From positions 727,551 through 791,550 of the forward strand of contig CP064998.1 in assembly GCA_016700035.1 (NCBI GenBank): a stretch of 64,000 nt of DNA. Reading direction: 5' to 3'. Below the pieces are notes generated by a model. It made no database searches. It was not told the DNA's origin and saw nothing but the letters and a program-made list of their open reading frames with translations. This stretch comes from a bacterium. GTDB lineage: Bacteria; Patescibacteriota; Saccharimonadia; CAILAD01; GCA-016700035. The translations under genes and the position numbers were made by a program. Positions 8,722 through 21,585 of the stretch are shown here, one piece after another. Within the stretch, counting starts at the first letter, position 1. The number at the start of each line of letters is the position of its first letter.

Positions 8722-9275
8722 GGGGCGGCTCCTTTCTTATCATGTATGAATGTATAGTAGGCGGCTGATTCTCGTGCAAACGTTCGTTGGCTGACAATAT
8801 TAAGTCCAACGTAGTTCATTTCCGAGATTGTCCATGCGCCAGTCTGACTATTGACGGCAATAACGTAAGCCACGTGTCCCCACTTACCGTTGTCGGACTG
8901 AAAAATCGCTCCGACAGCTGGCGTGTGATTCACTGCATAGCCATCACGAATCGCCCGATCATCCCAGGTATTAGCATCGCCCCACGTGGTTGGAATCGGG
9001 TAGCCTGCCGACAGGCGCATCGAAAATGCCCAGTAGGTACAGTTGCCCCACTCATAGGTATTGCCCGCAACTGGCCCACCCATGTAAAACCCCTGGGATT
9101 CGGCCGCTGCCAGGCTCGGCACATTAGATAGAAACGACACTACGTCCTCGCCCATGGCAAAGACGGCTGCAAACGGCAACGCCACAATAACCGCCATAGT
9201 GGCCAGCACCAGGCTGATCTGTTTTTTAACATTTCCGCCTGTCACCACATTAAGTGCGACCAGGGCTGGATTCAT
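8691..9275 (-). CDS. CHAP-domain peptidoglycan hydrolase (T4SS cell-wall hydrolase, functional analogue of VirB1/Orf14/TcpG), with an N-terminal TM helix.
   Basis: CHAP catalytic pattern GNCTYWA...GYPIP...WGDANTWDDRA...VGAIF...GKWGHVAYV with conserved Cys and His. Positioned between the VirB4 and T4CP genes. Confidence 0.7.
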   Translation of the reverse strand: MNPALVALNVVTGGNVKKQISLVLATMAVIVALPFAAVFAMGEDVVSFLSNVPSLAAAESQGFYMGGPVAGNTYEWGNCTYWAFSMRLSAGYPIPTTWGDANTWDDRAIRDGYAVNHTPAVGAIFQSDNGKWGHVAYVIAVNSQTGAWTISEMNYVGLNIVSQRTFARESAAYYTFIHDKKGAAPWTPQPISQP

Positions 9276-11032
9276 GCGTAGAGCTCCGTCGGGTCAGTGG
9301 TAATCAGCGGATGTTCTTTATCACTGGCCACAACCTTAACAGCAACGTGGTTCTGGTCGGCAATAATCAGGGCATCGCCACGCCCGCAGGTCAGCAGAAA
9401 GTTTTCCTCGTACTCACTCAAATGAAACTCGCTCGCCACATTCTTAATAGTGGTAGTGTCCTGGCGCATGAGAATTCTTAGGCTACTCTGTGAAGCGATC
9501 ACCCGACCATAGTTACTTTTGAGGAAATCATCAGCTTGCTGGGTAACAAACGATACACCGAGGTAGTATTTACGAGCCCGACGGACCAGTCCAGCAATAA
9601 AGCGGGCACTTGGTTCATGCTCTAGCAGTGACCAACCCTCATCAATCACCAACAGTCGCTTTTCGGGTTTTACTTTGACTTGGTTTTGAATGAAGTTAGA
9701 AACAATCAACATCATGATTGGCCTGAGATTAGCCGGCATATCTTTAATGTCAAAAATCACTAAACGGTTATCCAGTTTGATGTTAGTCTGTGAGTTAAAG
9801 ATTTCAGCACTGGAGCCACTAATATATTTCTCTAGCCGTTCACACAGTTGCAATTGACCAAGGCTGTGTAGTTCAGCATACAAATCTTCAAGCAGTGGAT
9901 GTTGCTTCTTAGCTTTTCTGTAGACTCGTAAGATTGCTTTATCGACCGCCGCTTTCTCACGTTTATCCAGTCCCTCCGCCATCAGGTCAATCACGGCCGT
10001 CAGGTCTTGGACGTGCTCAGCCAGGTCAGCTTTAGTGTGAAAAGTGGTTGCTAGGTCAAATGGGTTAATCTTTTGTTTGCTTTTAGCCGACAGTTTGATA
10101 TAGGTACCGTTGACGGTTTCACTCAGTCGTTTATATTCACGCTCTGGGTCAATCACCAGCACTTTCGTGCCTTGCATCAGTTGTCTAAGTATCTCAACCT
10201 TAGTGGTATAGCTTTTACCCGAGCCGGATTGAGCAAACACAATTGAATTGGCATTATGCAAGCTAAAACGATCCAAAATAACCAGCGAGTTATTGGACTT
10301 ATTCACGCCATACAAAATACCGGACTCTTGCACGAGTTCAGATGACATAAACGGAAATGTTAACGCTGCACTGGAGCTATCTAAGTTTCTCTTTTGCGCT
10401 AATTGATCTTCGCCTCTAGGCAAAATAGATTGCAAGGCTTCAAGTTGTTGGTAGCGGGCTACTTTGGAATAAAACAACCGAGCTGACATAGTTGCTTCCA
10501 GTAACTTGGTAGTTTTGTTGAGCTCCTCCAAGCTATCGGCTCGGATAGCTACGTAGATAGACATTTGAAACAGTTTTTCCTGGCCACGTTGGATTTTGTC
10601 TCTCAGTTCAATCGCCGATTCGAGCGGGTCAGTGATTTCTGAGCCAATAATCTTACCAGCTTGCATCATCGAGCGTCTGGTGCTTTCCAGTTCGGTAATC
10701 TTGCGGTGCAGTTTTGGCAGGGCGTGCAAGGCACTGACTTCATACAGATGGTAGCTAATGTCGGTATTGTGGTTGAAGTTAATGATGCTATCCAACCAAC
10801 CGGAACTGGCCGTAAATGGATAGCCAGAAATATAGATCGTCCGCATGTACACACCGTCGATCACGAGGTGGTCAACGTTTTCCTCTAGTCCAGCGTAACT
10901 AAGAGCATCAACGGCATCTTGTTCGCCAAATGCTAAGTTCAGTTCTTTTTGCTTTTCTTGCCTAGTTTTTTGGTAATTTTGCAGTGGTTCCAGCACTTTA
11001 TTGATATCAATCATCGGGGTCTCCTTTCTCAA
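9272..11032 (-). CDS. VirB4/TraC/TrbE-family conjugative ATPase, C-terminal ATPase portion (586 aa).
   Basis: Walker A AQSGSGKSYTTK. LVIDPEREY. Walker B-like RLLVIDEGWSLL. Sized as the C-terminal two-thirds of Gram-positive VirB4 homologues. Confidence 0.7.
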   Translation of the reverse strand: MRKETPMIDINKVLEPLQNYQKTRQEKQKELNLAFGEQDAVDALSYAGLEENVDHLVIDGVYMRTIYISGYPFTASSGWLDSIINFNHNTDISYHLYEVSALHALPKLHRKITELESTRRSMMQAGKIIGSEITDPLESAIELRDKIQRGQEKLFQMSIYVAIRADSLEELNKTTKLLEATMSARLFYSKVARYQQLEALQSILPRGEDQLAQKRNLDSSSAALTFPFMSSELVQESGILYGVNKSNNSLVILDRFSLHNANSIVFAQSGSGKSYTTKVEILRQLMQGTKVLVIDPEREYKRLSETVNGTYIKLSAKSKQKINPFDLATTFHTKADLAEHVQDLTAVIDLMAEGLDKREKAAVDKAILRVYRKAKKQHPLLEDLYAELHSLGQLQLCERLEKYISGSSAEIFNSQTNIKLDNRLVIFDIKDMPANLRPIMMLIVSNFIQNQVKVKPEKRLLVIDEGWSLLEHEPSARFIAGLVRRARKYYLGVSFVTQQADDFLKSNYGRVIASQSSLRILMRQDTTTIKNVASEFHLSEYEENFLLTCGRGDALIIADQNHVAVKVVASDKEHPLITTDPTELYA

Positions 11033-11642
11033 TCAGGGCGGTGTGGATGAGACTCAGGGCCGTTTCAGTCAGCGGTTGAACTTTAGCCTGAACAGGACTA
11101 TAGAAGCTGTAGAACAAATCAAGAATCTCCAAGCTACCAAGCTGGCGAGTGTGCATACCAAGCCGAGACATTCCCTTAGTCACGATGTCTATTTTGAGAT
11201 TGAGTTGCTCTTTAATTAACTCAAAGTCTGTTTTATTGTCAGCAGTGTACGGAATAATCAGGTAGAAGTGGCGGGTCAGGATTTTGTTGCTAGTAATCAG
11301 CGAGCGGATGAACTCATCGTAATTATGTAGTTGTTTTTGGTAGATTTTTTCAGTCTCACCTTTGAGGCGCTCCGCCAGATCTTCCAGGTATTTATCCATG
11401 TCAATCTCACGAGTACGAATCAGGACTTGTATGTTAGTGCCGAGTGAGTTTAAGAAATTCTCGTAGGTGTCTATGATAGCGTCCTGCTCAGTCTCACTTT
11501 TCAGCTCAAAGTTCAGTGCCGATACTTGCAGCACCACTCGGTACTGGTTGTGCGGCAAAAGCAATATACCGTCTCGTACGCCCTTAATAGCGATCTGGGA
11601 CCGAGCGCTACTTTTAGTCCTCGACTTCTGTAAGGCGAACAT
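11007..11642 (-). CDS. Probable N-terminal domain of a split VirB4 (211 aa). It overlaps the downstream ATPase ORF by 26 nt in another frame.
   Basis: 211 + 586 aa is about 800 aa, the size of PrgJ/TcpF/Orf16-type VirB4. The two ORFs are adjacent, on the same strand and overlapping. No independent motif was found in this piece. Confidence 0.4.
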   Translation of the reverse strand: MFALQKSRTKSSARSQIAIKGVRDGILLLPHNQYRVVLQVSALNFELKSETEQDAIIDTYENFLNSLGTNIQVLIRTREIDMDKYLEDLAERLKGETEKIYQKQLHNYDEFIRSLITSNKILTRHFYLIIPYTADNKTDFELIKEQLNLKIDIVTKGMSRLGMHTRQLGSLEILDLFYSFYSPVQAKVQPLTETALSLIHTALIEKGDPDD

Positions 11643-12117
11643 ATAAGGCTCCTTTCTTGGTCATTTCAAATCTTAAATTACTGCCAGGTTTGTTGATGGT
11701 TTCTAGCACTTGGGCAGCATCGTGAAAGGCTAGTTTCGGTAGAGGTGGTACCTTTGCGGCTGTCGTGCTTGTCTGCTCACTTGCATCAGTTTTTTTGATC
11801 GTATATTCTTCTCGGTAATCAGCACTTTTCTGAAATACATAGTGCCGAGGACGCAGGTTATAGCGCAGAATTGTAACCAGCCAGAAAAGCACAATCTTGC
11901 CTTTGATGCGGATAGCCAGGATGCCGGATAGAAGTGCAATCACACTCATCACCAGGTACTTATATATGTTGCCCTCCATAATAGGCGGCAGTATGACAAA
12001 TAGTCCGGCACCAACAAAGATTGGTACGATACATAACACCAGTTGAGAGAAACCCAGGTTACCCATAATCCGATCTTCTACGGTAGTAACTTGGGCGGGA
12101 ACGGCAGTGCTTCTCAT
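11614..12117 (-). CDS. VirB3/PrgI-like small T4SS membrane protein (167 aa, two TM helices).
   Basis: Two hydrophobic helices (IVPIFVGAGLFVILPP, LVMSVIALLSGILAI). Located directly upstream of VirB4, as in Gram-positive T4SS loci. Confidence 0.4.
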   Translation of the reverse strand: MRSTAVPAQVTTVEDRIMGNLGFSQLVLCIVPIFVGAGLFVILPPIMEGNIYKYLVMSVIALLSGILAIRIKGKIVLFWLVTILRYNLRPRHYVFQKSADYREEYTIKKTDASEQTSTTAAKVPPLPKLAFHDAAQVLETINKPGSNLRFEMTKKGALYVRLTEVED

Positions 12118-13604
12118 GATTTTGTCTCCTTACTTTTACTTGCTGATTGCTTGATAGCTCCATCTCGAGGGGTTGGCTTCAGGGCCTCATTAGTCGTACC
12201 AGTCTTACCGGACACCAATGTGCCTTTACGGTGTGGTGTGCTTGGGCTAGCTTCAGCACCTCTCTTGGTGGCATAACTCGCAGTCTGAGTCCGATCGGTC
12301 TTGAGTCCTTGCGGATGAGTGCCAGTGTGTGATCCAGCTGATTTCACACCACTAGTCTTACTGCCAGCTGCGCCTGCCACTGCTTTACCTTTGCCAGTCA
12401 TGTAGCTAACACCATTCATAAACTGGCTGCCGAGCTTGCGGGCATTACGTGAGCCCATGCTGACATAGCTAAACTGCATCATGACACCTTGGGTTTTGAG
12501 TAGCACCAGTACCGTAGCTAGTCCAACTACCATCGACATCAGGACATTCGGCACCTGATTATCCCCACTCGTCGCCGACATACCGGTAAACAGGGTGGCG
12601 GCCAGCATCAGTGTCACCACATGCACAAACAGCACAAAGATCGTCGTCACATAGGTCTTGATTGCCGACACCGAAAAGTCTCGGAAACTAGGGATTAGCC
12701 ACAATGCAATTACCATCGGGGACAGTACTGCACCCAGAAATAGCACGACTAAACGGCCGACGTAGTAGACCAGCAATATGACCGAGAAGATTAAAAAAGC
12801 CAGCATGACCAGCAGTGCTGCTGCACCTTGACCACCACTTTCTTTAACTACTGCCGTCAGTGTGTCCCAGACTGAACTCGCACCACTGACTTTAGTAATT
12901 GCAGTAATCAGTACGTTGGATAGTTCGATCAGAGCATCGATGAAGAAGATCGAGGTGTTGATGAGCAAGAAAGCCAGCCCTAGCCGGGGCAGCAACTTCT
13001 TGATATCGAGCTCATCGAAGCCAAATGTCGTTGCACTCATAACGTGGAAACCGAGCAGTGCCACTATCAGAATAAACAGCACATCCGTAATGCCAACTAC
13101 TGCCAACCATAGACTAAAGACCCCTGAGTTTTGCAGCATCAGGGGTGTCTCTTTCGTAAAGTAATCCAGCGCCGCAAGGAACGGCGCAGCCACCGCTTGA
13201 ATTATATTATTGAGAAATCCCGTCACCGCTTTAATTAACACTTCTACCAAGCCACTACCAACATTATCAGGTTCAATCGCTTGAAGTGTTGGCAGTGTGG
13301 CGTTATTGGTGCCCGATGGGTCACCATAAGCACCAGATAAAATCGTGGTCAGTGTGGCAGCACCAAGGACTAAGACCAGACCAATCAGGGCGTTCTTAAT
13401 AACCCGTTTGGCATTTTCCAGAGCCTCGGGATTGCCGCTGCTGGTGATGTACTGATAGCCACCATTGACCAGGAAAAAGACACAGGCGATTGAGGCCAGA
13501 CCGGCTAGCACCCGAATAGTCGGTCCAACGTAATCCCGCATTACGGTGATAGCACCCGAGGTGTCCGCCAGGATTGGCAGACTACTGTGCACGACATTAA
13601 TCAC
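12114..13604 (-). CDS. VirB6/TrbL-like polytopic T4SS membrane protein (496 aa), with a low-complexity S/T/G/K-rich C-terminal tail.
   Basis: At least six predicted TM helices. The N-terminal segment shares the motif YITSSGNPE with the upstream pilin-like protein. The C-terminal 120 aa are Ser/Thr/Gly/Lys-rich. Confidence 0.5.
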   Translation of the reverse strand: MINVVHSSLPILADTSGAITVMRDYVGPTIRVLAGLASIACVFFLVNGGYQYITSSGNPEALENAKRVIKNALIGLVLVLGAATLTTILSGAYGDPSGTNNATLPTLQAIEPDNVGSGLVEVLIKAVTGFLNNIIQAVAAPFLAALDYFTKETPLMLQNSGVFSLWLAVVGITDVLFILIVALLGFHVMSATTFGFDELDIKKLLPRLGLAFLLINTSIFFIDALIELSNVLITAITKVSGASSVWDTLTAVVKESGGQGAAALLVMLAFLIFSVILLVYYVGRLVVLFLGAVLSPMVIALWLIPSFRDFSVSAIKTYVTTIFVLFVHVVTLMLAATLFTGMSATSGDNQVPNVLMSMVVGLATVLVLLKTQGVMMQFSYVSMGSRNARKLGSQFMNGVSYMTGKGKAVAGAAGSKTSGVKSAGSHTGTHPQGLKTDRTQTASYATKRGAEASPSTPHRKGTLVSGKTGTTNEALKPTPRDGAIKQSASKSKETKS

Positions 13605-13608
13605 GGTG

Positions 13609-13947
13609 TTACCCTCCGAATGCGCTGCTTGCCAGTGAAGTTACGATATTGCTAATCACAAATGCACCGATCACGATAGCCAGGCCAATCAAGGAGTAGG
13701 TAATTGTTTTCTTACCACGATCTAAATGTTCAGGATTACCGGAGCTGGTGATATAGATAAAACCACCTGCAACTAAAAAGCCGGTCGCAACAAGACCGGC
13801 TAGTCCAGCAAAAACCGTGATAATTGATCTAATAAAGTTTTCGACATTACTAACCCCAGCAGTTGCAGCCAAAACAGGCGGAGCATACAAAAGTTGAGTC
13901 CCTGTTACCAAAAAGGCTATGAGTTTTAACTTAGTCCTAGATCGCAT
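13609..13947 (-). CDS. VirB2/TrbC-like pilin-family protein (113 aa): signal peptide plus two hydrophobic helices separated by a short polar loop. Start reassigned to ATG at 13947 with an upstream AAGGAGG RBS.
   Basis: MRSRTKLKLIAFLVTGTQLLYAPPVLAATAG is signal-peptide-like. The helices are FAGLAGLVATGFLVAGGFIYI and SLIGLAIVIGAFVISNIVT. The rc of cctcctt at 13954-13960 is the RBS. Confidence 0.45.
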   Translation of the reverse strand: MRSRTKLKLIAFLVTGTQLLYAPPVLAATAGVSNVENFIRSIITVFAGLAGLVATGFLVAGGFIYITSSGNPEHLDRGKKTITYSLIGLAIVIGAFVISNIVTSLASSAFGG

Positions 13948-14201
13948 GTTACTCCTCCTTATGTCTGTAATAAATCTAGCACACACTATTGCGTACATGC
14001 AAATTATATTATATACATAAGCAATATAAGGGGTGCGGCGTTGCCGCTTCATTGACAGGTTTGCTACACTAGTAGAGTGAAAGCTAAGATAAAAACTCGA
14101 AAACATAGACCACTTAGGCGTAAATTAGTCAGCTCGAAACTCAAACTTACACCGTACCTTGATATACCGCTCAAGTAGAATCATGACTCAAGGACAAAAC
14201 C

Positions 14202-14230
14202 TTGACATTATCTTAGAATTATATTATAGT
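14202..14230 (+). promoter_or_regulatory. Consensus sigma-70-type promoter P1 (TTGACA, 17-nt spacer, TATAGT) upstream of the DGR target gene.
   Basis: ttgacattatcttagaattatattatagt: exact -35 hexamer, 17-bp spacer, near-consensus -10. Confidence 0.5.
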
Positions 14231-14265
14231 TATATTCCTAATTTTCGGCGCGCTTTTTCTAAATT

Positions 14266-14293
14266 TTGACACTATGCTAAAGCTTGTTATAAT
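14266..14293 (+). promoter_or_regulatory. Second consensus promoter P2 (TTGACA, 16-nt spacer, TATAAT), overlapping the first ATG of the ORF track.
   Basis: ttgacactatgctaaagcttgttataat: perfect -35 and -10 hexamers. This implies translation starts downstream at ATG 14307. Confidence 0.5.
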
Positions 14294-14306
14294 ATTTTTG
14301 AATACC

Positions 14307-15191
14307 ATGAAGCGTGATGTACAACCCAGATCAAGTTTGAACACCGGCCGCCAAATTCTCGATAAATTTGTACGGTCAAGGCATAGTCGTGCCGCCATAC
14401 TCCTGGGAATTCTCGTCGCCGTTACTTTTGTCGGACTGAGAGTCTACCACGCCTACGCCGAAACGTACCCAGGCGGCAGCGACAATGGCCAGACCTCCCG
14501 TCTCAAAAGTTTGTCCGACGATCTGCAAACTTTAGGCTTCGGCAGCCCGACCAACTCCCCAGATTGGGGTTCTTTGTGGAATCGCATCAACACAGCATCT
14601 CGCTGGACACCGCCAGGTGATGTCACCACCTCGGACGTTCGTCTCGGAAAAAAGTTTTACAACAACAATCGCACAGAGCAGACCGGCACACTTTCAGCTG
14701 TTGGTCCGTGCCCAACTCAGGACTGGAACGACGGTCACGCCTCAGCCAATCAGACCGCAAACTGTGTCGACACTGTCACCTGGACAGTTCCATCACCAGT
14801 CGTCACTGGAGACGACAAGCGTGACCCTCGCACCGGACTTGCCTGGAGTCAGTGTCTCATCAACAGCAGTGGTACTGTGACTTTCGGACCATCTGGTTGC
14901 ACCAGCTGGTCCTGGGACGCCTCCGCTGCTGCCAATGTGGCAGTCGGTGGTAAAACGGCATCCCAGTTGTGCTCCGAGCGCAACGGCGGAGGCGTTTGGC
15001 GTCTTCCCACTCAGAAAGAACTCATGCAGGCCTACATTGACGGCTCAAGCTACAACCTTACTTCCACCGGTGCGACCCACTGGAGTCTGACCCAGTTCTC
15101 GGGTTCGGTTGCGTGGTTCGTGTACCTCAGTAATGGCACCACGGGTACCACCAATAAGACGAGTACCTACTATGTCCGTTGCGTCCGGTAA
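14307..15191 (+). CDS. DGR target protein: membrane-anchored, with a C-terminal C-type-lectin/DUF1566-like domain carrying the variable region. The ORF track starts at 14274, but 14307 is preferred because of promoter P2.
   Basis: TM helix AAILLGILVAVTFVGLRVY. The C-terminal WRLPTQKELMQAYIDGSSYNLTS...VRCVR resembles the DUF1566/FGE-type CLec fold of DGR targets. The last ~120 nt match TR 18479-18601 except at TR adenines. Confidence 0.8.
   Translation: MKRDVQPRSSLNTGRQILDKFVRSRHSRAAILLGILVAVTFVGLRVYHAYAETYPGGSDNGQTSRLKSLSDDLQTLGFGSPTNSPDWGSLWNRINTASRWTPPGDVTTSDVRLGKKFYNNNRTEQTGTLSAVGPCPTQDWNDGHASANQTANCVDTVTWTVPSPVVTGDDKRDPRTGLAWSQCLINSSGTVTFGPSGCTSWSWDASAAANVAVGGKTASQLCSERNGGGVWRLPTQKELMQAYIDGSSYNLTSTGATHWSLTQFSGSVAWFVYLSNGTTGTTNKTSTYYVRCVR
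15066..15188 (+). repeat. VR1: the active variable region of the DGR target gene.
   Basis: Codon-by-codon alignment with the TR. All 17 differences fall on TR adenines (for example aac to acc, ttc, tac or ggt). The shared 3' IMH-like end is gtccgttgcgtccgg. Confidence 0.8.
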
Positions 15192-15329
15192 TCATTTGGT
15201 TATTGGATTATTTGGTTATTAGTCTTACCGCCGTAGGCGGCCGAAGCAATTTTTTTCGGGGGTAGGAGTAAAGGGTAGTTTTGCCTTAAGGCTTAGAGAC
15301 ACTGAAGCTTTGCTATATACTACTCTACA

Positions 15330-15716
15330 ATGAAGATATTCGATATTCTTTTTGAAGATGGTGCAGAACCTGAACCCCACGAAATACAGACTGCACTCTT
15401 CCTGCGTAAGACAGGTAAGAAAATAACGTTCATAGCACCCAAGAATCGAACCGGTGTGAAAACACCAGATATCCGCATGGATAGCTTACATTGGGAAATT
15501 AAATCGCCTATGAGTGCCAGTGCACGATCAATTGAACATGCTTTTCGTAGCGCTCTTAAACAGTCCGGAAATGTGATATTTGACTTGCGGCGTAGCAAGG
15601 CAAGTGACATGGCTAATCTAGCAAAAATAAACCGACAGATAAAGTTGATAAAGGGTAAGAAACTACGACGGGTACTCGTAATCACAAAGAAAGAAAAACT
15701 ACTTGACTTAAAGTAA
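15330..15716 (+). CDS. Hypothetical 128-aa protein with a possible PD-(D/E)xK nuclease-fold motif.
   Basis: The segment GVKTPDIRMDSLHWEIKSP carries a PD...ExK arrangement with 11-aa spacing. This is weak, single-motif evidence. Confidence 0.3.
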   Translation: MKIFDILFEDGAEPEPHEIQTALFLRKTGKKITFIAPKNRTGVKTPDIRMDSLHWEIKSPMSASARSIEHAFRSALKQSGNVIFDLRRSKASDMANLAKINRQIKLIKGKKLRRVLVITKKEKLLDLK

Positions 15717-15838
15717 CTATTCATGCTAATGTATTGGTACAGGCACCGAGGCCTCTGCTGGATAGCTAGGGTTGCGGTGTCTTTATATGTATGTTTACTT
15801 ATGGTCAGTGACTAGACTTCAGGCTGCTTCCTTCCATA

Positions 15839-16027
15839 TTACCGGACGCAACGGACAAGGCGGGCACCCGTCTTAGCGGCGGTTTCCGTGACGCCATTAC
15901 CAAGGTACACCTGCCACGCACCAGTAACCGAGTTATGAGTCAAACTCCAGTGGGCCGCAGCGGTGGAAGTAAGGTTGTAGCTTGAGCCGTCAATGTAGGC
16001 CTGCATGAGTTCTTTCTGAGTGGGAAG
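15839..16027 (-). repeat. VR-like cassette 2 (minus strand): a promoterless 3' fragment of a target-type gene with a distinct variable region.
   Basis: It encodes ...PTQKELMQAYIDGSSYNLTSTAAAHWSLTHNSVTGAWQVYLGNGVTETAAKTGARLVRCVR*. The 5' and 3' ends (VRCVR plus stop) are conserved. The variable part has the same length (35 codons) as VR1 and the TR. Confidence 0.65.
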
Positions 16028-16110
16028 ACGGCTTGAACACTCCAAGTATAGCGGATTACTTATATTACCAAAAGTTGCCATCTTTAACTACTTTTGGTAG
16101 TATTGATATT

Positions 16111-17331
16111 ATGCTACTGCAACGAACCGAATATATCGATAGGCTACTCAAGCTTAGAGATAAAAATGTCATAAAGGTTATCACTGGTGTTCGCCGTTCG
16201 GGTAAGTCAACACTATTATCGATATATCGCAGTAAACTTGAGGAAAGTGGTGTGAGTCAGGCACGCATACAAACCTATAACTACGAAGATCCTCGAGTGA
16301 ATGACATGCTTGACTGGCGCGAAATATATCACTCTATAGAGAGCAAGCTCGTGAGTGATACGAAAAACTACGTGTTTCTAGATGAGATACAAGTTGTTCC
16401 TGAGTTCGAGAAATTAGTGGATGGTCTGTTTATTCATGATGACATCGACTTATACATTACTGGTTCAAATGCGTTCTTGCTATCGAGCGAACTAGCGACG
16501 CTTCTATCGGGTAGATACATTAGTACTCATGTTCTGCCTTTGTCTTTCGCTGAATACTCCCAGGCGTTTCCTGATGAGAATAGGGATCGTGTTTTTGAGC
16601 GCTACCTGAACAGTAGCACGCTACCTGAGACAATAGAGATCGCCGAAGGCAGTCCAGAGCTCGTTGCTGACTACGTGCGTGACGTATATCAGACGGTGGT
16701 ACAAAAAGACATTCGGAGTCGTTTTGCAATCCGCGATATGGATAACTTCGAAAAAGTCGTCAAGTTTGCTTTCGATAACATTGGCAACCTCGTATCTGCC
16801 AAAAGTATTGCTGATGCTCTGAATGCAGGCAATACTGCACATCAGCAAGACATATCACACAAAACAGTCACAAACTATCTCGAGTATCTCACGACATCAT
16901 ACCTTCTCTACAAAGCTGACCGCTACGATATTAAAGGTAAACAGCTCCTTAAAACACAAGAAAAATACTATGCGGTTGATCTCGGACTACGGAGCGTGTT
17001 GCTGGGGCAAAGGACAGATATTGATCTTGGGCATAAGCTTGAAAACATCGTGTATCTGGAATTACGCCGTCGCAATAACGGTCACATTCTCGTCGGTAAG
17101 TCAGATAGTAAAGAGGTGGATTTTGTCGTACAAAACACATCCGATGATCGGCAGTATTACCAGGTCGCCCTGACGGTTAAGGACGAAAAAACACTTGCCA
17201 GAGAGCTTGAGCCACTCCAAAGAATTCGTGACAATTACCAGAAGATTCTCTTAACGACTGATTACGATGACAGTGTGTATGAGGGCATCCGTAAGATCAA
17301 CGTGGTTGATTGGTTACTTACCACTGAATGA
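16111..17331 (+). CDS. AAA+ ATPase of the COG1373/DUF4143 family (406 aa from ATG 16111).
   Basis: P-loop GVRRSGKSTLL. Walker B VFLDEIQ. Length and motif order are typical of COG1373 ATPases. Confidence 0.6.
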   Translation: MLLQRTEYIDRLLKLRDKNVIKVITGVRRSGKSTLLSIYRSKLEESGVSQARIQTYNYEDPRVNDMLDWREIYHSIESKLVSDTKNYVFLDEIQVVPEFEKLVDGLFIHDDIDLYITGSNAFLLSSELATLLSGRYISTHVLPLSFAEYSQAFPDENRDRVFERYLNSSTLPETIEIAEGSPELVADYVRDVYQTVVQKDIRSRFAIRDMDNFEKVVKFAFDNIGNLVSAKSIADALNAGNTAHQQDISHKTVTNYLEYLTTSYLLYKADRYDIKGKQLLKTQEKYYAVDLGLRSVLLGQRTDIDLGHKLENIVYLELRRRNNGHILVGKSDSKEVDFVVQNTSDDRQYYQVALTVKDEKTLARELEPLQRIRDNYQKILLTTDYDDSVYEGIRKINVVDWLLTTE

Positions 17332-17437
17332 ACTAAAGCTCATCTAAGGATATTCGAAGATACCTTAATGGGCATACCAGATACATATCATGGTCAATTT
17401 CAGTAGATTGAGTTGTGGTAGCTTCCTTGCACAATAC

Positions 17438-17627
17438 CGGACGCAACGAACAGAGCTGGGCTGCGTCTTATTGGCGCTACCCGTGGCGCCATTACTGAGG
17501 GTCAAGGCCCACGCACTCGAACCCGAGTTCTGGGTCAAACTCCAGTTGCCCGCAGCGGTGGAAGTAAGGTTGTAGCTTGAGCCGTCAATGTAGGCCTGCA
17601 TGAGTTCTTTCTGAGTGGGAAAGAACT
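17438..17627 (-). repeat. VR-like cassette 3 (minus strand). The stop after VRCVR has mutated (taa to tat), giving a read-through tail.
   Basis: It encodes MQAYIDGSSYNLTSTAAGNWSLTQNSGSSAWALTLSNGATGSANKTQPSSVRCVRY.... Same conserved flanks and the same 35-codon variable segment. Confidence 0.65.
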
Positions 17628-17865
17628 CAGCCTTATGTAGATATGGAATTCAACTCCATTTTGCATTTAACCTAAGTATAATATTTCATCCTACCTATCC
17701 TTTTAAGAAAATACCGTATGTTCAGGTTCAGTACATTGAGAGCACCGCTACTTCATTAAGATACAGGCATAGAGAGAAAATAACCCCATTTCGGAATATC
17801 GTAGTATTATGGTTATAGTTAACTTTAATTAAACTAAAAAACGTCTAAATGGCAAGGGACGCATT

Positions 17866-18222
17866 GTGGCTCGTTACGAACACTTACCAGTATTCAATGA
17901 TACCTACGATCTAAACCTGTATTTCTTTAAGTTGTCACGTGGCTTTCCAAAAGACTATAAGTACGGTTTATCGCAAGAAATCAGGGCGCTGCTGACCGAA
18001 CTGTTAGATGACATCATTATTGCCAATAGTAGCCCCGATAAACAAACCGTTCTCAAGCGGGCTGCGCTCATAATAGAACGGATTAAGTTTAAGATTCGGA
18101 TATTAAAAGACCTTAAAATTATGAATGTCCGCAGTTACGAGTACTTTTCAAAGCGCCTAATTGCCGTATCGAAGCAAATTAATAAATGGGGTGACTGGTC
18201 GAGAGGCAAGCAGCCAGCCTAA
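17866..18222 (+). CDS. avd: DGR accessory variability determinant Avd (four-helix-bundle, 23S-rRNA-IVS-protein family), 118 aa.
   Basis: The motif FPKDYKYGLSQEIRA matches the FPKEEKYGLTSQ signature of Avd/IVS proteins. The ~120-aa size and the position upstream of TR and RT both fit. Confidence 0.7.
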   Translation: MARYEHLPVFNDTYDLNLYFFKLSRGFPKDYKYGLSQEIRALLTELLDDIIIANSSPDKQTVLKRAALIIERIKFKIRILKDLKIMNVRSYEYFSKRLIAVSKQINKWGDWSRGKQPA

Positions 18223-18478
18223 ACCAGTTGTCGGCCCATAGGTGTGCTAAAAACTCTGGCGCTCCACTTGGGCCTATAACAGGCCCAAAAGAAAGGCATA
18301 ACGTGAGAGCCGGTAGTTTTTGCTATTATGGCTATCTACCGGGAGGAAGCAAGTGCCCCATTACGGCTGTCGCTCCTATTCTTTTAATAGAGTAGGAATA
18401 CTATCAGGAGCTACTACACTGCTCGTCAGTGATGTGGTACCCCTAACTGGCCGAAAGTCGGCAGCAGATACCTAGGCC

Positions 18479-18601
18479 CCCGCTGCGAACCACTGGAGTC
18501 TGACCCAGAACTCGGGTTCGAATGCGTGGAACGTGAACCTCAGTAATGGCAACACGAATAACAACAATAAGACGAATACCAACTATGTCCGTTGCGTCCG
18601 G
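18479..18601 (+). repeat. DGR template repeat (TR): an asparagine-codon-rich (AAC/AAT) template lacking the 5' coding context.
   Basis: It translates as AANHWSLTQNSGSNAWNVNLSNGNTNNNNKTNTNYVRCVR, with 13 Asn codons. VR1 differs from it only at A positions. There is no start codon and no conserved MQAYIDGSS segment upstream. Confidence 0.8.
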
Positions 18602-18671
18602 TACAGGGGCGCCTTTCTTTTTAATAAGGTTAGTAAACCCAATAATGAATCTTTCCCACTTAAGATAAGAA

Positions 18672-18842
18672 CTCATGCAGGCCTACATTGACGGCTCAAG
18701 CTACAACCTTACTTCCCCCGCTGCGGGCCACTGGAGTTTGACTCAGAGCTCGGCTACGGCTGCGTGGACCGTGCTCCTCGGTAATGGCTACACGACTGGC
18801 ACCCTTAAACCGGATACCTACTATGTCCGTTGCGTCCGGTAC
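18672..18842 (+). repeat. VR-like cassette 4 (plus strand). It shares the ccc gct gcg 5' junction and the cggtacagg 3' flank with the TR.
   Basis: It encodes MQAYIDGSSYNLTSPAAGHWSLTQSSATAAWTVLLGNGYTTGTLKPDTYYVRCVRY. Most differences from the TR are at A positions, with a few at non-A positions. Confidence 0.65.
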
Positions 18843-18998
18843 AGGCCGCTTTTCTTTTTATTGAGCCCGATTAAGATATGTCAGAAACTTAGGCATTTAA
18901 TCTTCCAAGGCTAAACCAAAAAACTGAACCACTAAAAAAGAGCATAGTATCGACAAAAAGCTCAACGGCAGCTCTCAATGTTTTAGATTTACTCTCCA

Positions 18999-19167
18999 CT
19001 CATGCAGGCCTACATTGACGGCTCAAGCTACAACCTTACTTCCACCGCTGCGGCCCACTGGAGTTTGACTCAGAACTCGGTATCGAATGCGTGGTTCATG
19101 AACCTTAGTCTTGGCACCACGGATGCCATCGGTAAGACGAATACCCGCTCTGTCCGTTGCGTCCGGT
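18999..19167 (+). repeat. VR-like cassette 5 (plus strand), immediately upstream of the RT gene.
   Basis: It encodes MQAYIDGSSYNLTSTAAAHWSLTQNSVSNAWFMNLSLGTTDAIGKTNTRSVRCVRY. It belongs to the agt ttg act subfamily together with cassettes 2 to 4. Confidence 0.65.
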
Positions 19168-19225
19168 ATCGAACTATTGGTTTGTATGGGGTAGATTTAT
19201 GCTGTAGGTCTCGTACACTTTAGAT

Positions 19226-20341
19226 ATGGATACGTACTTCACGTTTGCAAACTTGCACCAGGCCTATTTAGATTGTAAAAAATACAAAAATCAAACTTTT
19301 TATCATCAAAAATTTGCCTACGACCTCGAGAAAAACCTGTCTAAGTTGGAACTCGATCTTGTAAATCGCACCTACCGGCCTGAACGTTCGATTGCCTTTG
19401 TGGTGACACAACCAAAAATTCGTGAAATTTTTGCGGCCGACTTCCGAGATCGTGTCATTCACCACTTGTTGTATAACTACTTGGCACCAGTGTTTGAACC
19501 ACGTTTTATCTATGATTCGTGGGCCTGCCGTCCGGCAAAAGGCACCCATGGGGCAATGCTGCGCTTGCAGCAATTTACTCGGAAAGTAAGTCAGAATCGC
19601 CGTTCTCGTGATTGTTACTACCTCAAGATGGACATAAAAAGCTTCTTTACCAGTATCGATAAACACATTCTGTACCAGCTGGTTGAACGCCGAGTCAAAA
19701 ACAAGGAAATCCGCTGGCTAGCACACGTTAACATCTTCCATGACTGTGCTCGTGACATCCCGCCACGTATCCAGAGTGCACCAACTCTTTTTGATAGTCT
19801 CCCACTAGACAAATCGCTGTTTACCGTCGAACCAGGCAAGGGGCTACCAATTGGCAATCTAACGTCGCAGTTCTTTGCCAATGTTTACCTACATGAACTG
19901 GATGCCTTTGTGAAGCACCACTTAAAAGCCAGGTACTACGTCCGCTACGTCGATGATTTCGTGATAGTACATGAGGACCAAACAGTGCTCGAACGCTACA
20001 AGCAGGAAATTACCGAGTTTGTCTGGCAGCGCCTGCGCTTAAAGGTTCACCCTGGCAAAGTGTTTATCCGCCCGATTAGCGACGGCATTGACTTTGTTGG
20101 CTACGTGGTACGCCCCGACTATATTTTAATCCGTCGGCGGGTCGTCGGTGAGTGGCGTAGGCGTATGGAGCAGGCCGCTACTCCTGACCAGCAGCAGACA
20201 ATTTACCACTCCTACCAAGCCCATGCCCGCTGGGCTGATTCACATAAACTACAGCGGGTCATGCGCAAACGATTACCAGATGTAGAAACAGTATATTCCA
20301 ATCCACCAATGAGCCTGAACGAGCCAGTACGAACTAGCTAG
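19226..20341 (+). CDS. DGR reverse transcriptase (371 aa).
   Basis: RT motif 4 appears in the DGR-specific form PIGNLTSQFFANVYL. Catalytic YVDD is present (VRYVDDFVIV). Gene order is Avd, TR, then RT. Confidence 0.85.
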   Translation: MDTYFTFANLHQAYLDCKKYKNQTFYHQKFAYDLEKNLSKLELDLVNRTYRPERSIAFVVTQPKIREIFAADFRDRVIHHLLYNYLAPVFEPRFIYDSWACRPAKGTHGAMLRLQQFTRKVSQNRRSRDCYYLKMDIKSFFTSIDKHILYQLVERRVKNKEIRWLAHVNIFHDCARDIPPRIQSAPTLFDSLPLDKSLFTVEPGKGLPIGNLTSQFFANVYLHELDAFVKHHLKARYYVRYVDDFVIVHEDQTVLERYKQEITEFVWQRLRLKVHPGKVFIRPISDGIDFVGYVVRPDYILIRRRVVGEWRRRMEQAATPDQQQTIYHSYQAHARWADSHKLQRVMRKRLPDVETVYSNPPMSLNEPVRTS

Positions 20342-21585
20342 CGTTTAGTTGTAAAGATTGTTTGAAACAGTCTGTCTTTGGCTTGTTGCATAGCAACTGC
20401 CCAAGCTGTATCGCTCTCAGCATACGCTATGGTATCCATCTGCGTAAAGCTAATACCTGGCTTGAGATAGGTTTCAGCTTTTGGCAGTGACTTTAGTTTC
20501 TCATACGGTACCATATAGCCCTTGGCTGGGTAGTGGTATGTACGCTTGCCAGTCTTTGTATCAACCTCGGTTTCTCGGTAACCGCAGGGTCTGTGGAAAT
20601 TGAGGTAGGGCACAAACCAATCACGGTACCAATCGTTAATCTCGGGTGCGTGTTCTCTAGGTATGTGGGCATAGCCTAATGCCTTACGGATAATACTGCC
20701 ATTCTTGGTCTCCACTAGGCCATTATCTCCACTCTGGTAGGCTCGTGACTTACTGAGTTTAATCAACATGGTCTTGAGCAGAACAGCAACCTGCTTGTTG
20801 ATGTACTCTGAGCCATTGTCAGCATGGAACTCGGTAAGCTGAAATGGGAATAGCGCAAGAGCTACTTCAAGTGCTGGTAGCATATAGCGTTCAGTGATCC
20901 GTTCTACTGCCACTACTACCTCCCACTGAGTGACCTCATCTACTAGGTTTATGTGGTACACCCCTTTCTGTTTGTCCATATCTCCTTGGTGTACTGTATC
21001 CACCCTAATGTAACCAGGACGGCCTTCAGGTCTTGGCTTTCGTCGCTCACCAATGGCTACGGCTGTAGCTTGGGTGCGTGTAAATGTTAGAGACTGGTTA
21101 CGGTAACCGATGCTACTACGTAGGTTGTAGATATGACTGACAGAAATACCCGCCAATCGCTGGTAACGTTCATCACCAAACCGTACATAGGCCCGAATAC
21201 AGAGCTCCCGAGCAGCTTTGCCACTCAGCCGATCATGAACATTGTCAACTTCAGCCAAGGCAGTACAATCCTCGGCTGTGTAGCGTAAAGCAAACTGATT
21301 ACGGCTATTGGTAGGTTCAAGGCGAAGCTGTCCGTTCTTAGCGTACTGGCTAATGAGCCGAGTAACCTGTGCTCGGCTGTAACCAGTCACTGCAATGGCA
21401 TAGGCTCGAACAATACCTTTGTCTGGTTTACTAAGTTTGAGATAGCTCTGCTGTACGAGTAGCTTTTGTAGCCACTCATAGGCCTCTATCTTACTGGTTG
21501 TTTTGCATTCCAGAGGACTAACAGCAGTGAACTGTCGCATCTCCTCCATGCTTGTGGTTACTGAAGCGTACATAGTGATAGTCAT
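20338..21585 (-). CDS. DDE transposase/integrase with an rve core, IS481-like family (415 aa). Its stop overlaps the RT stop.
   Basis: An N-terminal HTH-like region, then a catalytic core with ...HADNGSEYINKQ...LSKSRAYQSGDNGLVE.... This is the typical IS481/ISNCY rve-domain pattern. Confidence 0.65.
   Translation of the reverse strand: MTITMYASVTTSMEEMRQFTAVSPLECKTTSKIEAYEWLQKLLVQQSYLKLSKPDKGIVRAYAIAVTGYSRAQVTRLISQYAKNGQLRLEPTNSRNQFALRYTAEDCTALAEVDNVHDRLSGKAARELCIRAYVRFGDERYQRLAGISVSHIYNLRSSIGYRNQSLTFTRTQATAVAIGERRKPRPEGRPGYIRVDTVHQGDMDKQKGVYHINLVDEVTQWEVVVAVERITERYMLPALEVALALFPFQLTEFHADNGSEYINKQVAVLLKTMLIKLSKSRAYQSGDNGLVETKNGSIIRKALGYAHIPREHAPEINDWYRDWFVPYLNFHRPCGYRETEVDTKTGKRTYHYPAKGYMVPYEKLKSLPKAETYLKPGISFTQMDTIAYAESDTAWAVAMQQAKDRLFQTIFTTKR

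What the first reader, a model, noticed from the sequence alone, without database searches (positions are those of the whole stretch)
15839..19167. Four extra promoterless VR cassettes around the DGR: possible silent-cassette archive layered on mutagenic retrohoming
Besides the expressed target, four truncated copies of the target 3' end occur at 15839-16027(-), 17438-17627(-), 18672-18842(+) and 18999-19167(+). Each keeps the conserved 5' segment MQAYIDGSSYNLTS and the 3' VRCVR/IMH-like end. Between them is a 35-codon variable segment of identical length but different content, and the differences concentrate at positions where the TR has Asn codons. They also carry shared non-A differences (agt ttg act versus the TR's agt ctg acc), so they form an older sub-family. 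None has an upstream gene body or promoter. Two flank a COG1373 ATPase gene as direct repeats, and two sit between the TR and the RT, an unusually long 620-bp TR-RT spacer. They could be relics of former targets, products of ectopic retrohoming, or silent cassettes able to replace the expressed VR by gene conversion. The last would be pilS-like, a combination not usually described for DGRs.
Basis: partly seen in the sequence, partly recalled or inferred. Interest (0 to 1): 0.75.

Follow-up and report, generated by a model that had tools for sequence, protein, structure and literature searches.

The report
Gene-less variable-repeat copies around a DGR
Four gene-less copies of the hypervariable end of a retroelement's target gene surround that retroelement in a Saccharibacteria genome; they look like recombination-prone leftovers that kept being rewritten after losing their gene, not a proven store of spare variants.

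Summary
One diversity-generating retroelement (DGR) is present: target gene, Avd, template repeat (TR) and reverse transcriptase (RT). It carries four extra truncated variable-repeat (VR) copies, C1-C4. Each has an identical 42-nt 5' block, a 127-nt TR-homologous segment and the same 3' end. Independent assemblies reproduce every junction, so they are not artefacts.

Differences from the TR fall mainly at TR adenines (16-21 of 38, against 5-11 of 89 other sites). The expressed VR has only 2 non-adenine differences, so the cassettes are stale.

Close relatives lack some or all cassettes. A strain 5-8% diverged keeps cassettes at the same junctions, but with different, adenine-biased content and a different defence-type ATPase between C1 and C2.

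The copies recombine. TR x C3 deletions occur in three contigs. One TR carries a C3-derived patch. The 5' junction of C2 switches between variants.

None of eight expressed VR alleles carries a cassette marker, so the pilS-like archive idea has no support, though it is not excluded.

Best reading: non-coding pseudo-VRs, spread and homogenised by homologous recombination and only rarely rewritten. Their visible effect is structural instability of the DGR locus. This is a new variant of a known kind, of moderate interest.

The parts
14307..15191 (+). Expressed DGR target gene: N-terminal membrane anchor plus an Lcl_C/DUF1566 C-type-lectin-like domain. The ORF listing ORF starts at 14274. The likely start is 14307, downstream of a 12/12 promoter match at 14266-14293.
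   Evidence: PF07603, E 5.5e-14; the closest homologue, P0001, is 294 aa
15064..15190 (+). Expressed variable repeat (VRm). It differs from the TR at 15/38 adenine sites and 2/89 other sites.
15228..15240 (+). GC-rich hairpin (CCGCC-GTA-GGCGG) 38 nt downstream of VRm. It is conserved, with compensatory changes, in relatives (L105, L106, L056). None of the four cassettes has an equivalent.
   Evidence: requirement known from PMC3240598
15330..15716 (+). 128-aa CdiA_C-like protein gene between the target and the cassettes. It is variable cargo: strain J lacks it.
15839..16030 (-). Cassette C1. Stop codon 15839-15841, TR-homologous 127 nt at 15840-15966, 42-nt block at 15965-16006, about 25-30 nt of gene sequence upstream. 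Annotated in NCBI as an 80-aa hypothetical protein.
16111..17331 (+). AAA_14/DUF4143 ATPase, matching the PADLOC candidate defence family PDC-S01. It lies between direct repeats C1 and C2. In strain J a 19%-identical member of the same family sits in this place.
17435..17625 (-). Cassette C2. TR-homologous part 17435-17561, 42-nt block 17560-17601. Its 5' junction is polymorphic between strains. It shares a 3' flank with C1 and a 5' junction with C3.
17866..18222 (+). Avd accessory protein gene
   Evidence: PF22296, E 1.1e-12
18477..18603 (+). Template repeat (TR): 38 adenines in 127 nt, mostly in AAC/AAT codons.
18594..18622 (+). Terminator-like hairpin formed by the TR 3' end with 'flank A' (GCGTCC...GGGCGC followed by a T run). 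The flank is conserved after the TR of distant relatives (L106, L005).
18650..18841 (+). Cassette C3. It has a decayed 5' junction, the 42-nt block at 18675-18716, and the variable part at 18715-18841. It is followed by 'flank B' (18842-18997), whose first ~30 nt resemble the TR's own 3' flank. C3 is absent from L009, L015 and L020.
18998..19168 (+). Cassette C4. Homology to the gene starts only 4-5 nt before the ATG of the 42-nt block (19002-19043). The variable part is 19042-19168. It ends 57 nt before the RT start codon.
19226..20341 (+). DGR reverse transcriptase; contains IGNLTSQFFANVYL (the SQ motif).
   Evidence: motif per PMC3521204
20338..21585 (-). IS481-like transposase (rve) inserted directly after the RT. 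Absent in L005 and L110.

Best explanation
C1-C4 are non-coding pseudo-VRs: 3'-terminal fragments of the DGR target gene, running from about 5-30 nt before the codons MQAYIDG to the last base shared with the TR.

Inferred: they were copied around the DGR by DNA-level duplication and homologous recombination in a very plastic accessory region.

Each copy keeps the TR-homologous segment and the GC-rich 3' end. For that reason they went on receiving adenine-mutagenised sequence after they lost their gene. The route was either occasional, inefficient and often partial retrohoming, or gene conversion from other VR copies.

They lack the GC hairpin that follows the real VR, so they are overwritten much less often than the expressed VR. 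As a result they retain states written by earlier TR alleles plus ordinary drift.

Short-tract gene conversion between copies keeps the 42-nt block identical.

Their visible consequence is structural. They act as dispersed repeats that cause insertions, deletions and mosaics in the DGR locus. Examples are loss of the TR-C3 interval, transfer of a C3 patch into the TR, and exchange of the defence ATPase lying between C1 and C2.

No adaptive role is required.

Shown: the anatomy, the adenine bias, the staleness, the presence/absence polymorphism and the recombinant haplotypes. Inferred: the route of rewriting, the low efficiency, and the absence of function.
For: 1. Truncation and flanks. The open frame extends only 16-41 codons upstream of each cassette. 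Flanks are shared between copies: C1/C2 share a 3' flank (family D2), C2/C3 share a 5' junction, and the C3 3' flank resembles the TR flank.

2. Adenine bias against the TR in all four cassettes, and in three further cassettes of strain J.

3. Staleness. Expressed VRs show 0-2 non-adenine differences from the TR; all seven cassettes show 5-11. T24 is in all four window cassettes but in no expressed VR and no strain-J cassette. The rate of non-adenine differences falls from 8-11% in the 5' half to 3% at the 3' end, as expected if overwriting starts at the 3' end.

4. Change after truncation. Strain J (L105+L110, joined by an exact 55-nt overlap) has cassettes with the same C1 and C2 junctions. 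Orthologous pairs nevertheless differ at 18-25 of 38 adenine sites against 9-12 of 89 other sites (p 8e-5 to 4e-10).

5. Presence/absence. Contigs L005-L015, from 11 different samples, join window 15807 to 17769 through a 55-nt filler, with no C1-ATPase-C2. L005/7/8 have no cassette between TR and RT. L106 is a canonical one-VR DGR.

6. Recombination.
- TR is joined directly to flank B in L009, L015 and L020.
- The L015 TR carries exactly the four C3 states at positions 54, 59, 60 and 65.
- Strain J has one cassette with the C3-type 5' junction and the C4-type 3' flank.
- The C2 5' junction is C3-like in L016/18/19/21/L109 but gene-like in the window, although L109 is otherwise 99.3% identical.

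7. The hairpin is present after VRm in four lineages and absent after the cassettes. In phage BPP-1, sequences upstream of the VR are dispensable, and the hairpin is needed for efficient homing but not for residual homing (PMC3240598).

8. Among 57 other DGR loci with a detectable TR (RT 39-62% identical), every extra TR-like copy had at least 80% of its mismatches at adenines. No locus had a set of short-ORF copies.
Against: - The 42-nt block shows 0 differences in 5 copies, while the adjacent variable part has about 5-12% non-adenine divergence and the flanks are far more diverged. I explain this by gene conversion, and one such event is seen. Selection on the block for an unknown function would fit equally well.
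- Cassettes at the C1 and C2 sites persist with the same junctions across 5-8% divergence. That is longer than expected for useless repeats that are also deletion-prone.
- All cassettes remain indel-free and in frame.
- I could not separate direct retrohoming from conversion by other VRs. Window C4 shares 9 of 10 adenine-site states with strain-J C2, which shows that cassette content also moves between sites.
- The comparison among near-identical strains is uninformative. Cassettes are identical there, but so is the expressed VR (L111).
- The hairpin requirement is transferred from a phage DGR and was not tested here.
Confidence: 0.55

Rival explanations
1. Silent-cassette archive (pilS-like). 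The cassettes store earlier VR variants. They can replace the expressed VR, or reprogram the TR, by RecA-type gene conversion that uses the 42-nt block and the 3' end as homology arms.
For: - The architecture fits: several gene-less, in-frame, indel-free copies with perfectly conserved flanking blocks.
- Gene conversion between copies occurs: the C2 junction, and a C3 patch inside the TR of L015.
- Cassettes are retained at the same sites in a strain 5-8% diverged.
Against: - None of 8 expressed VR alleles carries a cassette-specific non-adenine state such as T24 or T29. The only overlap is a single T-to-A at position 41 in L011 (the L013 contig carries the same VR), without the neighbouring T40.
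- Many strains lack the cassettes and still diversify the VR.
- The 3' homology arm is only about 23 nt.
- The one transfer seen goes into the TR. It removes four adenines, so it degrades the template rather than serving the target.
- Statistical power is low, because only two of the sampled VR alleles come from cassette-bearing strains.
Confidence: 0.07
2. Products of aberrant or ectopic retrohoming. Each cassette began as a cDNA that started at the TR 3' end and ran on into target-gene sequence by template switching. It was then inserted near the DGR.
For: - Every cassette ends exactly at the last base shared by TR and VR (GGTA).
- Each carries its own adenine-mutagenised pattern.
- The cassettes lie within 3.5 kb of the RT, in both orientations.
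Against: - C1 and C2 share about 35-40 nt of 3' flank beyond GGTA.
- C2 and C3 share the 5' junction, including a derived 2-nt insertion and about 15 nt of upstream flank.
- C3 carries about 30 nt of TR-type 3' flank.
- Independent cDNA insertions would not share flanks. The exact 3' boundary is equally explained if the TR homogenises only the TR-homologous part while the flanks decay.
Confidence: 0.1
3. Recombination handles. The cassettes are kept because, as conserved repeats, they allow modules to be swapped by homologous exchange between strains. The modules are the defence ATPase between C1 and C2, and Avd-TR between the inverted pair C2/C3.
For: - Two PDC-S01 ATPases only 19% identical occupy exactly the interval between C1 and C2 in two strains. 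Divergence starts at the C1 5' junction and about 12 nt beyond the C2 3' end.
- L005-type strains carry a different Avd-TR-RT module in the same context.
Against: - Flanking single-copy genes could serve as arms just as well.
- The L005-type module swap happened in a haplotype without cassettes.
- No inversion of Avd-TR was seen in three assemblies that span it (window, L109, L110).
- The evidence is an association in two strains only.
Confidence: 0.1
4. The short ORFs (73-80 aa, starting at or before MQAYIDG) encode small functional proteins that the DGR diversifies.
For: - All four are open from an ATG to the VRCVR end or beyond.
- The C1 ORF is annotated in NCBI.
- The homology of C4 begins 4-5 nt before the ATG.
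Against: - They cover only the last ~40-72 of 117 positions of the Lcl_C domain model and score below its cut-off.
- They have no signal peptide or anchor like the real target.
- C2, C3 and C4 have lost the native stop codon and read into arbitrary flank.
- No strong promoter is present.
- They are absent from many strains.
- The upstream junctions of C2 and C3 carry frame-breaking changes.
Confidence: 0.03

Closest known systems
DGRs with several VRs in paralogous target genes, about one seventh of the DGRs in the DiGReF survey (PMC3521204). Saccharibacteria contigs with three full-length DUF1566 proteins also exist (P0018, P0063 and P0082 share a contig length).
   Same: One TR/RT serves several homologous repeats that end in the same IMH-like sequence. 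The differences are adenine-biased.
   Different: There, each VR is the 3' end of an intact gene. In my check of 57 related DGR loci, all extra copies had at least 80% adenine mismatches and no locus had a set of short-ORF copies. Here the four extra copies have no gene, carry 5-11 non-adenine differences, and two of them sit inside the TR-RT spacer.
Isolated reports of orphan or remnant VRs: one of four VRs of Pelodictyon phaeoclathratiforme BU-1 lies outside any coding region (PMC3521204). Nostoc PCC 7120 all3226 shows remnant TR-VR homology (PMC7517822).
   Same: VR-like sequence that is not part of a working target next to its DGR.
   Different: Those are single cases noted in passing. Here there is a family of four, with population data on gain, loss, rewriting and recombination with the TR. 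Standard pipelines would discard such copies, because they require at least 75% adenine mismatches and targets longer than 300 nt (PMC8144416).
Silent-cassette antigenic variation: Neisseria pilE/pilS, Borrelia vlsE, chicken Ig pseudo-V gene conversion (from my own knowledge of these systems).
   Same: Promoterless partial copies with conserved segments bracketing a variable segment, clustered near the expressed gene. Gene conversion between copies occurs.
   Different: The defining one-way transfer from silent copy to expressed locus was looked for and not seen. The variation in the copies is itself made by a retroelement. The only transfer observed is into the template.
Canonical BPP-1 DGR target rules (PMC3240598)
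   Same: Sequence upstream of the VR is dispensable. This explains how a gene-less fragment can still be a recipient.
   Different: The cassettes lack the downstream GC hairpin needed for efficient homing. In addition, in this element the TR and VR are identical through the whole GC-rich 3' end and diverge only after GGTA.

Membership tests
Diversity-generating retroelement (the locus as a whole) | Reverse transcriptase of the DGR clade with the SQ motif in motif 4 | tested here: met
   RVT_1 domain. The sequence contains IGNLTSQFFANVYL. Motif per PMC3521204.
Diversity-generating retroelement (the locus as a whole) | TR/VR pair whose mismatches fall at TR adenines, with the VR at the 3' end of a gene | tested here: met
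   VRm: 15/38 adenine sites against 2/89 others. Eight different VRm alleles across strains differ almost only at adenine sites.
Diversity-generating retroelement (the locus as a whole) | Accessory protein Avd and a C-type-lectin-like target | tested here: met
   bAvd, E 1.1e-12; Lcl_C, E 5.5e-14
Bona fide DGR target (applied to C1-C4) | The VR lies in a protein-coding gene with a body upstream | tested here: not met
   Only 16-41 open codons upstream. The upstream DNA is an ATPase gene on the other strand, Avd upstream sequence, TR flank, or spacer.
Bona fide DGR target (applied to C1-C4) | GC-rich 3' element identical to the TR, plus homology for 5' cDNA integration | tested here: met
   GTCCGTTGCGTCCGGTA is present in all four, with one mismatch in C2. 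There are 127 nt of TR homology.
Bona fide DGR target (applied to C1-C4) | GC-rich hairpin/cruciform shortly downstream of the VR | tested here: not met
   Present after VRm (window, L105, L106, L056, with compensatory changes). No comparable hairpin lies within 50 nt of any cassette.
Bona fide DGR target (applied to C1-C4) | Ongoing adenine-specific variation | tested here: inconclusive
   Orthologous cassettes of two strains differ in an adenine-biased way. Among near-identical strains neither the cassettes nor VRm vary. No read-level data were available.
Silent-cassette gene-conversion system (pilE/pilS type) | Multiple promoterless partial copies with conserved segments flanking a variable segment | tested here: met
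Silent-cassette gene-conversion system (pilE/pilS type) | Non-reciprocal transfer of cassette sequence into the expressed locus | tested here: not met
   No cassette-specific non-adenine marker in 8 expressed VR alleles. Power is low.
Silent-cassette gene-conversion system (pilE/pilS type) | Dedicated initiation element and dependence on recombination proteins | not testable with these tools
   Needs genetics in a cultivated host.

The most novel reading that the evidence does not exclude
Information in this DGR does not flow only from TR to VR. The gene-less cassettes form a reservoir that feeds sequence back by gene conversion, into the TR (as in contig L015) and possibly into the expressed VR. 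Past variants could then be recalled, and the template itself could be reprogrammed. This would be a retroelement-written, recombination-read archive.
Probability: 0.07. Interest if true: 0.8.

Novelty: new variant of a known kind. Interest (0 to 1): 0.4.

Why it matters
DGR theory treats the TR as invariant, information flow as one-way, and VRs as parts of genes.

This locus gives a natural case where gene-less VR fragments persisted and changed in an adenine-biased way. That bears on what a DGR target minimally needs in nature.

It also shows repeats generated around a DGR recombining with its TR, deleting the TR's conserved 3' flank or replacing template adenines. This is a concrete route by which DGR templates evolve or decay, and it would explain the non-adenine mismatches that surveys usually filter out.

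The case also shows that current DGR pipelines would miss such copies.

If the cassettes did donate sequence to the expressed gene, it would be the first combination of mutagenic retrohoming with cassette-based variation. The present evidence does not support that.

Tried and rejected
- Two scans of JGI metagenome contigs found nothing: a gapped VR pattern and a 24-nt piece of the block.
- The ATPase look-up with the ATG start found nothing. The TTG-start form worked.
- The genome-contig scan with the RT gave no close relative (best 61-62% identity). I used it only as a survey of 80 DGR loci. In a few of them my crude ORF test failed at contig ends or for minus-strand VRs, so they are not counted as evidence.
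- Rfam gave no meaningful hit in 14000-20500.
- I first read the identity of C4 (5 assemblies) and of C1/C2 (L109, L023/24) as 'static cassettes against an active VR'. I rejected this after L111 showed the expressed VR is also 100% identical in window-like strains. The 10 SNPs of L109 are also clustered in the ATPase gene, so they do not act as a clock.
- Pairwise sharing of adenine-site states between the expressed VR and the cassettes is near the 1/3 chance level. Weak excesses of the same size also appear among unrelated VR alleles, so there is no sign of transfer.
- I considered inversion of Avd-TR between the inverted pair C2/C3. All three spanning assemblies have the same orientation.
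- A protein search with the C3 ORF returned only two short ORFs. One of them led to contig L110.

Full report
**What is there.** The window holds one diversity-generating retroelement (DGR) of a Saccharibacteria/CPR bacterium. Target homologues are annotated as Saccharibacteria or Patescibacteria DUF1566 proteins. The C1 ORF is QQS26800.1, on a 916-kb NCBI contig.

The order of features is:
- target gene, 14307-15191 (+), with an Lcl_C/DUF1566 domain; its variable repeat VRm is at 15064-15190
- a CdiA_C-like 128-aa gene
- cassette C1 (-)
- an AAA_14/DUF4143 ATPase (+)
- cassette C2 (-)
- Avd
- TR, 18477-18603
- cassette C3 (+)
- cassette C4 (+)
- RT, 19226-20341
- an IS481-like transposase (-)

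The RT carries the DGR SQ motif, IGNLTSQFF (PMC3521204).

**Check of the observation.**
- The 3' end GTCCGTTGCGTCCGGTA occurs six times against 0.05 expected.
- The 42-nt block encoding MQAYIDGSSYNLTS occurs five times with no mismatch against 0 expected.
- All copies are colinear without indels.
- Against the 127-nt TR, the cassettes differ at 16-21 of 38 adenine sites and at 5-11 of 89 other sites (p 1e-5 to 3e-8). VRm differs at 15 and 2.
- T24 is shared by all four cassettes and T29 by three.
- The open frame reaches only 16-41 codons upstream of each cassette, against 283 for VRm.
- TR end to RT start is 622 nt, against 54-82 nt in L106, L005 and L056.

**The cassettes are not artefacts.**
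- L109, a MEGAHIT contig from another sample, spans C1-ATPase-C2 at 99.3% identity.
- L105 and L110, two JGI contigs with an exact 55-nt overlap, span a homologous locus.
- Short-read contigs end in the repeated block, as expected, but reproduce every unique junction.

**Relatives: gain, loss and rearrangement.**
- Contigs L005-L015, retrieved through the 128-aa protein (L015 through Avd) from 11 different samples, join window 15807 directly to 17769 through an unrelated 55-nt filler. They have no C1-ATPase-C2 block.
- L005/7/8 carry a divergent Avd-TR-RT module and no cassette at all between TR and RT.
- L106 (target 67% identical) is a plain one-VR DGR.
- L009, L015 and L020 have the TR followed directly by the sequence that follows C3 in the window ('flank B'). 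This is the expected product of recombination between the TR and C3.
- Strain J (L105+L110, 5-8% diverged) has C1' and C2' at the same junctions. It has one cassette between TR and RT, with the C3-type 5' junction and the C4-type 3' flank.
- No relative shows a cassette as the end of an intact gene.

**How the copies are related.**
- C1 and C2 share 3' flanking DNA beyond the last TR-homologous base (family D2).
- C2 and C3 share their 5' junction, including a derived 2-nt insertion seen in most strains. They form an inverted pair around Avd-TR (I5).
- C3 is followed by about 30 nt that resemble the TR's own conserved 3' flank, CAGGGGCGCCTTTCTTTTT. That flank also follows the TR in L106 and L005.

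Shared flanks indicate DNA-level duplication and recombination, not independent cDNA insertions.

The flanks are strongly diverged while the 42-nt block is identical in all copies and strains, so something homogenises the block. One such event is visible. The C2 junction reads CTTGAGTCAAG (C3-like) in L016, L018, L019, L021 and L109, but CTCAGAAAG (gene-like) in the window. L109 is otherwise 99.3% identical to the window.

A second conversion touches the template. The TR of L015 carries exactly the four C3 states at positions 54, 59, 60 and 65, and is TR-like on both sides. The identical runs between TR and C3 on either side of the patch are 8-9 nt, too short for a k=31 assembly chimera. This is my reasoning from the sequences; I assume k=31 for Logan contigs.

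**Are the cassettes DGR substrates?**
- They were substrates at some time, as the adenine bias shows.
- They are stale relative to the expressed VR. Expressed VRs of the window and strain J have 2 and 0 non-adenine differences from the TR, which is identical in both strains. All seven cassettes have 5-11.
- Some of these states match other TR alleles in the population. For example, ACT at codon 42-44 in C1 matches the L005-type TR. They are best read as a record of earlier templates plus drift.
- The rate of non-adenine differences falls from 8-11% in the 5' half to 3% near the 3' end. This fits overwriting that starts at the 3' end and is often partial.
- The truncated junctions at the C1 and C2 sites are shared by the window and strain J, so truncation predates their split. 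Yet orthologous cassettes differ at 18-25 of 38 adenine sites against 9-12 of 89 others. Adenine-specific change therefore continued in gene-less copies.
- That change came either by direct retrohoming or by conversion from other VR copies. Window C4 shares 9 of 10 adenine-site states with strain-J C2, so content also moves between sites.
- Direct retrohoming is plausible. In phage BPP-1, sequences upstream of the VR are dispensable (PMC3240598).
- Low efficiency is also plausible. VRm is followed by a GC hairpin conserved with compensatory changes in four lineages: CCGCC/GGCGG, GCCGCC/GGCGGC, GTCGCC/GGCGAC and CCGCC/GGCGG. No cassette has one. In BPP-1 that hairpin is needed for efficient homing, though residual homing occurs without it.

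**The pilS-like idea.** The prerequisites are present. I looked for the defining step, cassette sequence in the expressed VR. Eight expressed alleles (window, L005, L006, L009, L011, L012, L014 partial, strain J) are all different and differ from the TR almost only at adenines, so the DGR is active across the population. None carries T24, T29 or another cassette-specific tract. Sharing of adenine-site states between VRm and the cassettes is near chance. The test is weak, because only two of these alleles come from cassette-bearing strains.

My initial 'static cassettes' argument does not hold. C4 is identical in L001-L004, and C1/C2 are identical in L109 and L023/24. But the expressed VR is also identical in a window-like contig from another sample (L111).

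**Side finding.** The ATPase between C1 and C2 matches the PADLOC candidate defence family PDC-S01 (E 8.6e-142). In strain J the same interval holds another PDC-S01 member that is only 19% identical. Divergence begins exactly at the C1 5' junction and about 12 nt beyond the C2 3' end. The interval between the two cassettes thus behaves as an exchangeable cargo slot.

**How unusual it is.** Among 57 other DGR loci with a detectable TR (RT 39-62% identical), every extra TR-like copy had at least 80% adenine mismatches, and no locus had a set of short-ORF copies. A few single cases where my ORF test failed are not counted.

The literature held here reports multi-VR DGRs, a single VR outside any ORF in Pelodictyon (PMC3521204), and remnant TR-VR homology in Nostoc (PMC7517822). 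I found no report of cassette families or of VR-to-TR transfer. Large surveys discard repeats with under 75% adenine mismatches and targets under 300 nt (PMC8144416), so such copies would be missed.

**Verdict.** The feature is real and unusual, and the anatomy is well supported. The most likely explanation (confidence 0.55) is that these are non-coding pseudo-VRs. They are spread and homogenised by homologous recombination and overwritten only rarely. Their visible effect is to destabilise and remodel the DGR locus, including its template.

The silent-archive reading is not supported, but these data do not exclude it (probability about 0.07). I rate the finding as a new variant of a known kind, with interest 0.4.

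Noticed in passing
L005:4995-5121 and L005:6483-6609 (also L007, L008, L010): In these strains the target VR matches the window-type TR, with differences almost only at its adenines. The TR actually next to it belongs to a divergent Avd-TR-RT module (Avd-TR 81% and RT 69% nucleotide identity). That TR differs from the VR at many non-adenine sites and in the 3' end (GTCCGCTGTGTCCGGTA). The DGR module appears to have been swapped without the VR yet being rewritten.
   Followed up: partly
window 16111-17331; L105:8754-8936 + L110:1-1128: The gene between C1 and C2 is a PADLOC PDC-S01 candidate defence ATPase. A strain 5-8% diverged has a 19%-identical PDC-S01 member in exactly the same inter-cassette interval.
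   Followed up: partly
window 15330-15716: A 128-aa stand-alone protein with a CdiA_C toxin-like domain (E 4.8e-12) lies between the DGR target and Avd. It is 100% conserved in at least 18 contigs, but strain J (L105) has about 400 nt of unrelated DNA in its place.
   Followed up: no
window 20338-21585 (-): An IS481-like transposase (rve) ORF overlaps the RT stop by 4 nt. It is absent in L005 and L110, where the fn3-repeat protein gene follows the RT directly. The window RT is 371 aa, about 15-20 aa longer at the C-terminus than the RTs of relatives (351-356 aa).
   Followed up: no
window 18594-18622; L106 and L005 TR flanks: The 3' end of the TR pairs with the following GGGCGC and is followed by a T run, forming a terminator-like hairpin. 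This flank (CAGGGGCGCCTTTCTTTT) is conserved after the TR in relatives whose targets are only 67% identical. It may be the start of the functional spacer RNA. In L009, L015 and L020 it is replaced by the weaker flank B.
   Followed up: partly
window 17600-17630: In the window only, the 5' junction of C2 forms a 10-nt perfect inverted repeat (GAGTTCTTTC / GAAAGAACTC) around a 7-nt loop. Other strains have different sequence here (L109, L016, L017).
   Followed up: partly
window 14266-14293: A perfect sigma-70-type promoter match (TTGACA-16-TATAAT with TG) lies inside the first codons of the longest target ORF. The real start is probably the ATG at 14307, which gives the 294 aa seen in the closest homologue (P0001).
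   Followed up: no
window 9272-14106; L006, L105: The DGR lies directly downstream of a type IV secretion gene set (VirB4/TraC-like, TrbL, PrgI-like, pilin-like, CHAP). In L005 the same DGR target sits instead next to relaxase/HTH genes, so the DGR module moves between contexts.
   Followed up: no
L107:3943-4779, L108: A 61%-identical paralogue of the target sits directly upstream of the same fn3-repeat protein and ABC transporter genes, with no RT, Avd or TR on the contig.
   Followed up: no
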